DNA from: Escherichia coli
Lineage (GTDB): Bacteria > Pseudomonadota > Gammaproteobacteria > Enterobacterales > Enterobacteriaceae
Reading direction: 5' to 3' (one strand)
Assembly: GCF_030013595.1 (NCBI RefSeq)
Contig: NZ_CP122768.1
DNA length: 64,000 bases
Below, one piece after another: positions 8,427 through 9,068 of the stretch. Below the pieces are notes generated by a model that saw only the letters and a program-made list of their open reading frames with translations, was not told the DNA's origin and did not search any database. Positions within the stretch are counted from its first letter, which is position 1. Every line of letters starts with the position of its first letter. The position numbers and the translations under genes are program-made.

Positions 8427-8539
8427 GTGGGTGTTGTGTTTAGGGCCGGGGAGAGTCGGGGTATGACTACGAAAGCCCCTAACTTAAACACGATATTACG
8501 CCAGAAGTCACCATTTCCAAAACACAACGCCGTTGTACC

Positions 8540-8773
8540 GTGGGATATCTGCCCAACAGCAGCGACACGCCGGTGATCAAAATCAGCGCCAAATGGCTGA
8601 GAGAAGCGGGATTTGAGATCGGCACGGGCGTTACCGTGAAGATCCCGGAAGGTTGCCTGATCCTGCTTGCGGATAACAACGGAGTACAGGAACTGAGGAA
8701 GGAACTTTATAAGGTTAAACAGGCTGTTAAGGGGATGCGTGACGGGATGTTTAGTGTGCTGAACGAAAGTTAA
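8540..8773 (+). CDS. SymE-like protein (type I toxin family, AbrB/SpoVT-like fold), N-terminally short
   Basis: The core ISAKWLREAGFEIGTGVTVKIPEGCLILLA is similar to the conserved core of E. coli SymE as I recall it (ITLKGQWLEAAGF...VKVMEGCIVLTA). Confidence 0.6.
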   Translation: MGYLPNSSDTPVIKISAKWLREAGFEIGTGVTVKIPEGCLILLADNNGVQELRKELYKVKQAVKGMRDGMFSVLNES

Positions 8774-8783
8774 ATAATAAAAA

Positions 8784-8819
8784 AGCCGGGAAGATTTAAT
8801 TTTCCTCCCGGCTTTTATT
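8784..8819. terminator. Rho-independent terminator after the SymE-like gene
   Basis: Hairpin GCCGGGA...TCCCGGC followed by TTTTATTTT. Confidence 0.6.
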
Positions 8820-9068
8820 TTAGCTTAAAAGTATTTTTTCGATATATTCACTAACCTTTGAATTAACTCCTGATATATATTCATTATCTTTACCAGAGTA
8901 AAATTTTAAAGAACCTTCCAAATTATCATGAAGAACAAGAAGATCATAAGCAAGTAATTTTGGGATAAGCGAAGCACTTTGATAATCAGTCATTACTTTA
9001 TCAAGTGACATATATAGCCTATCAATTATGTTTGTATCTAAATCATCCGCTAATCTAATCATTTCCAC
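8820..9068 (-). CDS. Hypothetical 82-aa protein (orphan; AT-rich locus)
   Basis: ORF in conspicuously AT-rich DNA directly abutting the IS66 end. I recognise no family. The start is uncertain. Confidence 0.35.
   Translation of the reverse strand: MEMIRLADDLDTNIIDRLYMSLDKVMTDYQSASLIPKLLAYDLLVLHDNLEGSLKFYSGKDNEYISGVNSKVSEYIEKILLS

What the first reader, a model, noticed from the sequence alone, without database searches (positions are those of the whole stretch)
8430..8820. SymE-like (type I toxin family) gene at the island edge
The 77-aa ORF shares the conserved core of SymE, the SOS-induced toxin of E. coli whose translation is repressed by the antisense sRNA SymR; this comparison rests on my memory of the SymE sequence. 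It lacks the N-terminal roughly 35 residues found in SymE as I recall it, so it may be a truncated or divergent family member. If it is a functional toxin, an antisense RNA covering its 5' end (about 8480-8560) would be expected; I cannot see such a gene directly, but the region has no convincing protein-coding alternative.
Basis: partly seen in the sequence, partly recalled or inferred. Interest (0 to 1): 0.5.

Follow-up and report, generated by a model that had tools for sequence, protein, structure and literature searches.

The report
Decayed SymE-family toxin gene remnant
The 77-codon ORF next to yafV is a real member of the SymE toxin family, already named as such in RefSeq, but it has lost its ribosome-binding site, its start codon and most of its antisense-RNA antitoxin gene, so it is probably an ordinary dead remnant.

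Summary
The ORF at 8540-8773 (77 aa) is real. It matches Pfam SymE_toxin (i-E 2.9e-13), and RefSeq annotates the identical ORF as a "SymE family type I addiction module toxin". It is not K-12 SymE: 31% identity, NCBIfam 37 bits against a cut-off of 132, no LexA box, and a different locus.

It belongs to a subfamily that sits convergent to rhs/immunity genes at the ends of Rhs/T6SS arrays, an association already published. Intact relatives are 97-109 aa and begin MAEHDITPEV.

In the window the frame stays open and homologous back to 8483. A net 33-nt loss has removed the Shine-Dalgarno sequence and the ATG.

Intact relatives also carry a SymR homologue on the opposite strand:
- Its -10 box lies at the same codon positions as in K-12 symR.
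- The predicted RNA is about 75 nt with two hairpins; 10 of 14 pairs in hairpin 2 show changes on both sides.
- Rfam symR matches one relative full-length, below threshold.

The same 33-nt loss removed hairpin 1, the part complementary to SD and AUG. Only the antisense promoter (8493-8520, minus strand) and a hairpin-2 remnant survive, and a covariance model finds no SymR-like RNA in the window.

Verdict: a decayed symE/symR-type module, a known kind, of low interest.

The parts
8427..8467 (.). Spacer after the yafV stop. It is shared with more than 2,600 E. coli genomes, where a full ISAs1/H-rpt follows it, and also with the distal leader of a symE-like gene at an unrelated locus (L007).
8468..8478 (-). 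TACGAAAGCCC, identical to the last 11 nt of the right end of ISAs1/H-rpt. It is also part of the hybrid leader seen in intact E. coli copies.
   Evidence: blastn (window 8478-8379 matches IS positions 1282-1381); alignment
8458..8479 (-). GGGGC-loop-CCCC hairpin, the remnant of hairpin 2 of the SymR-like antisense RNA.
   Evidence: fold; alignments
8479..8491 (+). Deletion scar (CTAACTTAAACAC). Intact copies have about 46 nt here, including the GAGGT Shine-Dalgarno sequence, the ATG start and antisense hairpin 1. Net loss is 33 nt. The TAA at 8480-8482 closes the frame.
8483..8773 (+). Open frame homologous to codons 3-97 of intact 97-aa SymE-family genes. It has no ATG/GTG/TTG before 8540.
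8540..8773 (+). The annotated 77-aa ORF (GTG start, no Shine-Dalgarno). It contains the MazE/AbrB-like SymE core and the C-terminal helix.
8493..8520 (-). Retained promoter of the SymR-like antisense RNA: -35 TTGGAA (8520-8515), 16-nt spacer, -10 TAATAT (8498-8493). Predicted start is about 8485. The -10 occupies the same codon positions as the K-12 symR -10.
   Evidence: sequence; K-12 annotation; conservation
8560..8643 (-). Sub-threshold match to Rfam isrA (31.8 bits, GA 51), antisense to the coding sequence. It reflects homology of the coding sequence and is not independent evidence for an RNA here.
8781..8816 (.). 14-bp GC-rich hairpin with an A-run on one side and a T-run on the other. 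It is a bidirectional terminator shared by the symE-like ORF (and probably yafV read-through) and the convergent rhsI-like gene.
   Evidence: conserved
8820..9068 (-). 3' part of a small gene in the Rhs-immunity position (97 aa when intact, L001 4421-4714). It is cut at its 5' end by the IS66 insertion. No Pfam or NCBIfam match.
9108..11720 (-). The three ORFs of an IS66-family element: TnpC-like 9108-10679 (name inferred from size and position; not scanned), TnpB-like 10699-11046 (inferred likewise), TnpA 11046-11720 (NCBIfam match). In L001 the corresponding stretch holds rhs fragments.

Best explanation
Window 8427-8816 is the decayed remains of a symE/symR-type (type I) toxin-antitoxin module. 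This kind of module normally sits at the distal end of Rhs/T6SS effector arrays, convergent with the last rhs-immunity pair.

In intact relatives a 97-109-aa SymE-family protein is translated from an ATG behind a GAGG Shine-Dalgarno sequence. The protein has a MazE/AbrB-like DNA-binding core and a C-terminal helix. On the opposite strand, a promoter embedded in codons 5-17 drives a roughly 75-nt, two-hairpin homologue of SymR. Its first hairpin is complementary to the SD and AUG, so it should block translation as SymR does (inferred by homology).

In this window a net 33-nt loss removed the SD, the ATG and antisense hairpin 1 together. The loss probably followed an ISAs1 insertion or deletion at this spot. 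What is left is:
- codons 3-97 in frame;
- the antisense promoter;
- a hairpin-2 stub;
- the shared terminator.

The stretch is probably transcribed as the 3' tail of yafV mRNA. It is at most weakly translated from the SD-less GTG 8540 (the RefSeq call) or ATT 8513 (a GenBank call in L008).

Shown: family membership, the deletion, absence of the RNA, absence of a LexA box. Inferred: loss of function, the regulatory mechanism in relatives.
For: Family membership:
- Pfam SymE_toxin i-E 2.9e-13.
- RefSeq name for the identical ORF.

Deletion of the start:
- 120 homologues were listed. The 97-aa forms cover 99% of the extended frame at up to 89% identity and start MAEHDITPEVTISKTQRR, where the window reads *LKHDITPEVTISKTQRR.
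- DNA alignments of 20 copies show the window, L001, L008 and L009 lacking the block ...GCTCACCACAAGCAACTAATCGAGGTAGTTAATCATGG....

SymR homologue in relatives:
- K-12 symR is annotated to start 6 nt inside symE, with its -10 TAGAAT on codon 5 position 2 to codon 7 position 1.
- Relatives carry TAATAT or TAGAAT at the same codon positions, with TTGGAA 16 nt upstream. This holds even where the peptide differs (L014, L030).
- The predicted RNAs fold as two hairpins like SymR, with z-scores of -6.5 (L030) and -5.3 (K-12), and fold better than the sense strand.
- On the 10-sequence alignment, which includes K-12 SymR, 79% of cells pair against 29-51% for slid controls. 10 of 14 hairpin-2 pairs change on both sides.
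- Rfam symR hits L030 2907-2982 full-length at 46.5 bits, E 6.5e-6, below the GA of 61.
- Model R1 finds the RNA in relatives that were not used to build it (several of these are near-duplicates of the training loci).

Absence in the window:
- R1 finds nothing in the window.
- No LexA box.
- No sense-strand promoter or terminator between yafV and the ORF.

Codon-level divergence:
- The two deletion alleles differ by 11 non-synonymous and 8 synonymous changes, dN/dS 0.39, against 0.12-0.15 for intact pairs. The changes include a hit to the conserved G of AGF in L008 and S to P in the window.
Against: - The frame has stayed open for 96 codons in at least three genomes, and dN/dS is below 1. Some constraint or a recent origin cannot be excluded.
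- The 77-aa product would still contain the whole MazE-like core and the C-terminal helix. In K-12 SymE the N-terminal tail is predicted to be disordered (PMC11894785).
- PGAP accepts the GTG start.
- Non-canonical or leaderless-like translation was not tested.
- The exact deletion path (one complex event or several small ones) is unresolved.
- There are no expression data for this strain.
Confidence: 0.7

Rival explanations
1. The ORF is a functional, naturally short SymE-family protein of 77 aa from GTG 8540, or 86 aa from ATT 8513, as public annotation has it. It would be expressed by read-through from yafV and act as a DNA-binding or toxic protein without an RNA antitoxin.
For: - The ORF is intact and is annotated this way in RefSeq. 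An 86-aa version is called in GenBank assemblies.
- Many database entries of 77-86 aa exist.
- The MazE-like core and C-terminal helix are retained.
- dN/dS between the deletion alleles is 0.39, not 1.
- No terminator lies between yafV and the ORF.
Against: - No Shine-Dalgarno sequence lies before either candidate start.
- The Pfam domain and 19 homologous in-frame codons lie upstream of the GTG, which marks a truncated gene rather than a short one.
- The short database forms are mostly 5'-truncated copies abutting rhs fragments.
- Non-conservative changes fall at conserved positions.
- An unregulated SymE-type toxin would be expected to be harmful (Kawano 2007, PMC1891008).
Confidence: 0.2
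2. The stretch matters only as RNA. It would act as the 3' UTR and terminator of yafV, or as a source of a residual antisense transcript from the surviving promoter (start about 8485) running into the yafV 3' end, or as an IsrA/Ssr1-like antisense transcript from the convergent side.
For: - The antisense promoter is retained.
- The shared bidirectional terminator is present.
- Rfam isrA and Ssr1 give sub-threshold matches on the minus strand.
- In Salmonella, IsrA is expressed inversely to its overlapping gene STM0294.1n (PMC2330248).
Against: - Both Rfam matches are far below the gathering scores (31.8 against 51; 248.8 against 820) and are explained by homology of the coding sequence.
- The Ssr1 RNA mapped in Shigella (5' end at position 131 of the 654-nt region, about 150 nt long; PMC4782007) lies on the immunity-gene side of the terminator, not over the symE-like coding sequence.
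- The IS66 insertion has removed whatever drove convergent transcription.
- The promoter is only an 8-of-12 match to consensus.
Confidence: 0.08
3. The ORF is a chance reading frame with a spurious resemblance to SymE.
For: None beyond its small size.
Against: Pfam i-E 2.9e-13, and 153 homologues at E down to 2e-49.
Confidence: 0.01

Closest known systems
E. coli K-12 symE/symR type I toxin-antitoxin locus (Kawano, Aravind and Storz 2007, PMC1891008; Rfam RF01809)
   Same: - Same protein family (Pfam PF08845).
- In intact relatives of the window copy, the antisense RNA has the same architecture as SymR. It starts at the complement of codon 2, its -10 sits on the same codon positions, it has two hairpins, and it aligns column for column with SymR.
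   Different: - 31% protein identity and below the NCBIfam equivalog cut-off.
- No LexA box.
- Located at an Rhs/T6SS island edge rather than the hsd-mcr region.
- In the window, the SD, the ATG and antisense hairpin 1 are deleted.
SymE-family genes in RHS / polymorphic-toxin neighbourhoods (Kawano 2007, Fig. 7 and section 13; Erwinia Vorin locus, PMC7764402; Pantoea orphan hcp loci, PMC3942780)
   Same: Same context. The gene is convergent to an rhs C-terminal tip plus immunity pair, with one or several copies per array.
   Different: Those reports describe intact genes and only conjecture RNA regulators. This copy is a 5'-deleted remnant.
Salmonella IsrA (Rfam RF01385; Padalon-Brauch 2008, PMC2330248)
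   Same: The Rfam isrA model maps antisense to SymE-family coding sequences above its gathering score in four relatives (70-112 bits). IsrA was reported as cis-antisense to STM0294.1n and inversely expressed with it.
   Different: In the window the match is 31.8 bits (GA 51), because the short-form coding sequence lacks the inserted segment. There is no evidence of a promoter for it here.
Shigella Ssr1 (Rfam RF02627; PMC4782007)
   Same: It is described between an Rhs gene (SF0268) and yafV, the same chromosomal position. The 3' 300 nt of the 654-nt model are the reverse complement of a symE-like coding sequence plus the terminator.
   Different: 248.8 bits against a GA of 820. The part upstream of the terminator is unrelated here. 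The mapped RNA of about 150 nt does not cover the symE-like coding sequence.

Membership tests
SymE family (Pfam PF08845 SymE_toxin) | Significant match to the family profile | tested here: met
   i-E 2.9e-13, 50.1 bits, model positions 1-52 of 54. RefSeq gives the family name to the identical ORF.
SymE family (Pfam PF08845 SymE_toxin) | MazE/AbrB-like swapped-hairpin fold | tested here: inconclusive
   The AlphaFold2 monomer model has mean pLDDT 47.5. The order strand-strand-helix-strand-strand-long helix is compatible, but the model is too weak for a fold search. No solved relative was found by sequence.
SymE family (Pfam PF08845 SymE_toxin) | Complete gene with its own SD and start codon | tested here: not met
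   The GAGG SD and the ATG of intact 97-109-aa relatives are absent, a net 33-nt loss.
SymE proper (K-12 orthologue, NCBIfam NF010128 equivalog) | Score at or above the curated cut-off of 132 bits | tested here: not met
   37.3 bits; 31% identity to K-12 SymE.
SymE proper (K-12 orthologue, NCBIfam NF010128 equivalog) | LexA box / SOS control upstream | tested here: not met
   No CTGT-N8-ACAG with one mismatch or fewer in 8250-8600, nor in 12 relatives. The K-12 control box at -93 was recovered.
Type I toxin-antitoxin of the symE/symR kind | cis-antisense RNA complementary to the SD and AUG of the toxin mRNA | tested here: not met
   Model R1 gives no hit in the window with default filters. With filters off over 8200-9000, only terminator-like noise of 8.2 bits or less appears. 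In relatives the feature is met.
Type I toxin-antitoxin of the symE/symR kind | Antisense promoter embedded in the first codons of the toxin gene | tested here: met
   TTGGAA-16 nt-TAATAT at 8520-8493 on the minus strand, at the codon positions of the K-12 symR -10. This is sequence evidence only; activity was not tested.
Type I toxin-antitoxin of the symE/symR kind | Toxicity of the protein on over-expression, neutralised by the RNA | not testable with these tools
   Requires experiment.
Rfam isrA (RF01385) | Bit score at or above the gathering score of 51 | tested here: not met
   31.8 bits at 8560-8643, minus strand.
Rfam Ssr1 (RF02627) | Bit score at or above the gathering score of 820 | tested here: not met
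   248.8 bits at 8510-9073, minus strand. Only the half antisense to the coding sequence aligns well.

The most novel reading that the evidence does not exclude
The E. coli ISAs1/H-rpt element and the symE/symR-like module may be functionally entangled.
- The last ~55 nt of the IS resemble SymR-like nt 1-44 and the antisense of the symE-like SD and start. These nt encode a transposase tail that lies outside the conserved ISAs1 profile.
- The left end of the IS sits at the hairpin-1/hairpin-2 junction of the SymR-like gene in several loci.
- The window carries an 11-nt stub of the IS end at its deletion point.

The IS might home to these antitoxin genes, or carry a SymR mimic that lets it disrupt the antitoxin safely. 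Recombination between the IS end and the leader would then generate both the hybrid leaders of intact E. coli copies and dead alleles like this one.
Probability: 0.1. Interest if true: 0.55.

Novelty: already known. Interest (0 to 1): 0.2.

Why it matters
For this window it matters little. The gene family, its type I antisense control and its association with Rhs/T6SS loci are all published, and the ORF is already named in RefSeq.

There are three practical points:
- The RefSeq call (77 aa, GTG start) almost certainly labels a 5'-deleted remnant as an intact toxin. Many short "SymE family" entries are likewise truncated copies inside Rhs arrays.
- The Rhs-linked SymE subfamily does have true SymR homologues with covarying hairpins. 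Rfam's symR model misses them at its gathering score.
- Two Rfam "sRNA" families, isrA and Ssr1, are in large part the reverse complement of SymE-family coding sequence. That should be borne in mind when they are used for annotation.

Tried and rejected
- Island junction as the cause of truncation. I first thought the core/island junction at 8478/8479 had simply cut off the gene's 5' end. I rejected this because 8437-8478 is homologous to the leader of intact copies at other loci. The lesion is therefore an internal net 33-nt loss, not a clean break.
- Ssr1 as the expected antisense regulator. Rejected, because the RNA mapped in Shigella (5' end at position 131 of the 654-nt region, about 150 nt long; PMC4782007) lies beyond the terminator.
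- RNAalifold on a plain MAFFT alignment of 90-nt antisense stretches gave almost no structure, because divergent leaders (L013, L014) and misaligned hairpin-2 sequences were included. Single-sequence folds and a trimmed alignment then showed the two hairpins.
- The consensus promoter scan found no promoter in 8427-8640 on either strand. The antisense promoter scores 8 of 12, just under the scan's threshold. I identified it by positional homology to K-12 symR instead.
- LexA box search: negative.
- Structure prediction: pLDDT 47.5, unusable, so no fold search was run.
- PDB sequence search: nothing.
- Pfam and NCBIfam on the convergent 97-aa gene: nothing.
- dN/dS: intermediate and based on 19 differences, so only suggestive.
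- One literature search was wasted, because the term 'IsrA' matched 'Israel' at word start.

Full report
**Setting**

The window is E. coli chromosome. fadE lies at 4464-6986 (+), ivy at 7029-7502 (-) and yafV at 7647-8426 (+). A variable island follows and runs to tRNA-Asp (aspV) at 23011-23087. The island holds an IS66-family element (ORFs at 9108-11720, minus strand) and a decayed type VI secretion cluster: TssH/ClpV, TagK, a split TssF, TssG and TssA. The finding lies at the yafV edge of this island.

**Observation**

The + strand ORF at 8540-8773 (GTG start, 77 aa) exists. An identical sequence in strain HCP5S3_I2 is annotated by RefSeq as WP_064225733.1, "SymE family type I addiction module toxin". 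The frame translated from 8483 matches Pfam SymE_toxin at i-E 2.9e-13. The 77-aa ORF matches NCBIfam SymE at E 2e-9, but with 37.3 bits against a curated cut-off of 132. Identity to K-12 SymE is 31%. It is therefore a true family member and not an orthologue of SymE proper.

**The gene is 5'-deleted**

The Pfam domain begins five codons upstream of the GTG. The frame is open back to the TAA at 8480-8482 and reads LKHDITPEVTISKTQRRCTVGY.... A database search listed 120 of 153 relatives. The best are 97 aa, cover 99% of this extended frame at up to 89% identity, and begin MAEHDITPEVTISKTQRRCTVGY.

DNA alignments of 20 copies show what intact genes carry upstream:

...CGCTCACCACAAGCAACTAATCGAGGTAGTTAATC-ATG-GCT-GAA-CAC-GAT...

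The window carries only ...GCCC-CTAACTTAA-ACACGAT at that point. So do the identical L001 and two further yafV-locus copies, L008 and L009. The net loss is 33 nt, and it takes out the GAGG Shine-Dalgarno sequence and the ATG.

Neither GTG 8540 (the PGAP start) nor ATT 8513 (the start used for the 86-aa call in L008) has a Shine-Dalgarno sequence.

The sequence upstream of the scar, 8437-8478, is still homologous to the leader of intact copies at other loci. The lesion is therefore internal to the module and is not the island boundary.

**Context and frequency**

In every locus examined the gene is convergent with an rhs or other polymorphic-toxin tip and its immunity gene, and shares a hairpin terminator with them. 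In some Erwinia and Escherichia loci it follows a cHTH gene next to a primase. Both arrangements were drawn by Kawano et al. 2007 (PMC1891008, section 13).

Counts across the 5,426 complete E. coli genomes:

| Feature | Genomes |
|---|---|
| Similar DNA to 8479-8830 (up to 8 copies per genome) | 212 |
| Intact leader plus start | 124 |
| Contiguous yafV-plus-deleted-allele arrangement | 10 |

Many copies inside arrays are truncated at codon ~22 and abut orphan rhs fragments. Across Enterobacterales many copies carry stops or frameshifts. Decay is common in this family.

**The antisense RNA**

K-12 symR is annotated to start 6 nt inside symE. Its -10 box, TAGAAT, is the complement of codon 5 position 2 through codon 7 position 1.

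Intact relatives of the window gene have TAATAT or TAGAAT at the same codon positions, with TTGGAA 16 nt upstream. This holds even where the peptide differs (MAERDSTPEV in L014, MAKTHSKAES in L030).

From the homologous start site the predicted RNA reads AGCCAUGAUUAACUACCUCG... It folds into hairpin 1 (nt 2-36, with the anti-SD CCUC in the loop), a GA spacer, and a 14-15-bp hairpin 2. This is the layout of SymR. The fold z-scores are -6.5 for L030 and -5.3 for K-12 SymR. The antisense strand folds much better than the sense strand, because many pairs are G-U.

A 10-sequence alignment places K-12 SymR in the same columns. On it:
- 79% of cells pair, against 29-51% when the 3' partners are slid by one to three columns.
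- 10 of 14 hairpin-2 pairs show changes on both sides.
- No shuffle reaches the observed covariation score.

The caveat is that I derived the structure from these same sequences.

Two further checks support the RNA. Rfam's symR model hits L030 2907-2982 full-length at 46.5 bits, E 6.5e-6, below its GA of 61; the match starts exactly at my predicted start site. A covariance model built from the alignment recovers the RNA in loci that were not used to build it, although several of those are near-duplicates of the training loci.

The subfamily therefore has genuine SymR homologues. Repression of translation by them is inferred by homology and was not shown here.

**State of the antisense RNA in the window**

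The promoter survives: -35 at 8520-8515, -10 at 8498-8493, predicted start about 8485. The 33-nt loss removed hairpin 1. Only a GGGGC...CCCC stub (8458-8479) remains of hairpin 2.

The covariance model finds nothing in the 64-kb window. With filters off over 8200-9000 it finds only the terminator hairpin, at 8.2 bits. One lesion has therefore taken out both the toxin's translation signals and the antitoxin's pairing region, which is what a dead module would look like.

No LexA box is present here or in 12 relatives, while the K-12 box is recovered as a control.

**Is anything still functional?**

No terminator or promoter lies between yafV and the ORF. The stretch is therefore probably the 3' tail of the yafV transcript.

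The two deletion alleles (window and L008) differ by 11 non-synonymous and 8 synonymous changes, giving dN/dS 0.39. Intact pairs give 0.12-0.15. L008 changes the conserved G of AGF, and the window has S to P in the VKISEG strand. This suggests relaxed constraint, but the counts are small.

The 77-aa product would still hold the whole MazE-like core and the C-terminal helix, and the N-terminal tail is predicted to be disordered in K-12 SymE (PMC11894785). Weak residual function therefore cannot be excluded. I put 0.7 on a non-functional remnant and 0.2 on a functional short protein.

**Other RNA-family matches**

Rfam Ssr1 (248.8 bits, GA 820) and isrA (31.8 bits, GA 51) match the minus strand.

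The Ssr1 model's 3' half is simply the reverse complement of a symE-like coding sequence plus the terminator. The Shigella RNA itself, about 150 nt from position 131, lies on the immunity-gene side of the terminator (PMC4782007).

isrA matches above threshold, antisense to the coding sequence, in four relatives. IsrA was reported as cis-antisense to STM0294.1n and inversely expressed with it (PMC2330248). This is experimental precedent for antisense control in the subfamily. It is not evidence for an RNA in this window.

**ISAs1 link (side observation)**

In more than 2,600 E. coli genomes, yafV and the spacer 8427-8467 are followed by a full ISAs1/H-rpt element. Window 8468-8478 equals the last 11 nt of that IS.

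The last ~55 nt of the IS are 76-80% identical to the antisense of the symE-like leader and start. They encode a transposase tail that lies outside the conserved ISAs1 profile, which covers residues 29-344 of 378. The covariance model matches the IS end only weakly, at 13.5 bits.

In L052-L054 a partial IS lies with its left end 56 nt upstream of an intact symE-like ATG, inside hairpin 2 of the SymR-like gene.

The window allele thus probably arose from an IS-bearing ancestor by deletion. Whether the resemblance between the IS end and SymR has a function is unexplained.

**Verdict**

The feature is a known kind of element, already annotated, and here it is degenerate.

Noticed in passing
L055 3569-3623 (REL606 ISAs1 right end); window 8468-8478; L052 1857-2444: The last ~55 nt of E. 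coli ISAs1/H-rpt encode a transposase tail outside the conserved ISAs1 profile. They are 76-80% identical to the antisense of the symE-like leader and start. IS left ends sit inside the SymR-like gene, and the window keeps an 11-nt stub of the IS end at its deletion point.
   Followed up: partly
L030 2907-2982, L047 2429-2506, L049 2429-2506, L029 2923-3000, L052 2429-2506 (all minus strand in locus coordinates): Rhs- or cHTH-linked SymE-family genes carry SymR homologues with two hairpins and many compensatory changes in hairpin 2. Rfam symR detects only one of them, and below its gathering score.
   Followed up: yes
L052 2572-2700, L047 2572-2700, L029 3065-3193, L030 3022-3176 (minus strand); window 8510-9073: The Rfam families isrA and Ssr1 are largely the reverse complement of SymE-family coding sequence (isrA scores above GA in four relatives). 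The original Ssr1 paper never mentions SymE.
   Followed up: partly
L002 3984/3985; one search hits with query_from 69 or 73: Many SymE-like copies inside Rhs arrays are cut at the same point (codon ~22), directly abutting the 5' end of an orphan rhs fragment. This suggests a recurrent recombination breakpoint when rhs tips are displaced.
   Followed up: partly
window 8820-9068 and 9108-11720: An IS66-family element (TnpA matched by NCBIfam; TnpB and TnpC inferred) truncates the small gene in the Rhs-immunity position. It occupies the stretch where the otherwise identical strain HCP5S3_I2 (L001) has rhs fragments.
   Followed up: partly
window 13738-22879: A remnant type VI secretion cluster: TssH/ClpV, TagK, TssG and TssA, with TssF split into two ORFs (18948-19844 and 19820-20830), probably by a frameshift. 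No vgrG or full rhs gene was identified between it and the IS66 (the small ORFs at 11773-13725 were not scanned).
   Followed up: partly
window 20613-20706: ARAGORN calls a 94-nt 'tRNA-His' inside the tssF coding region. This is probably a false positive.
   Followed up: no
L047/L048 (Erwinia pyrifoliae), L049/L050: Two nearly identical cassettes occur a few kb apart: primase on the opposite strand, then cHTH, then SymE, convergent with a SUKH immunity gene and a Tox-HNH tip, with tyrosine recombinases nearby. The arrangement looks like a mobile or shufflable toxin-cassette array.
   Followed up: no
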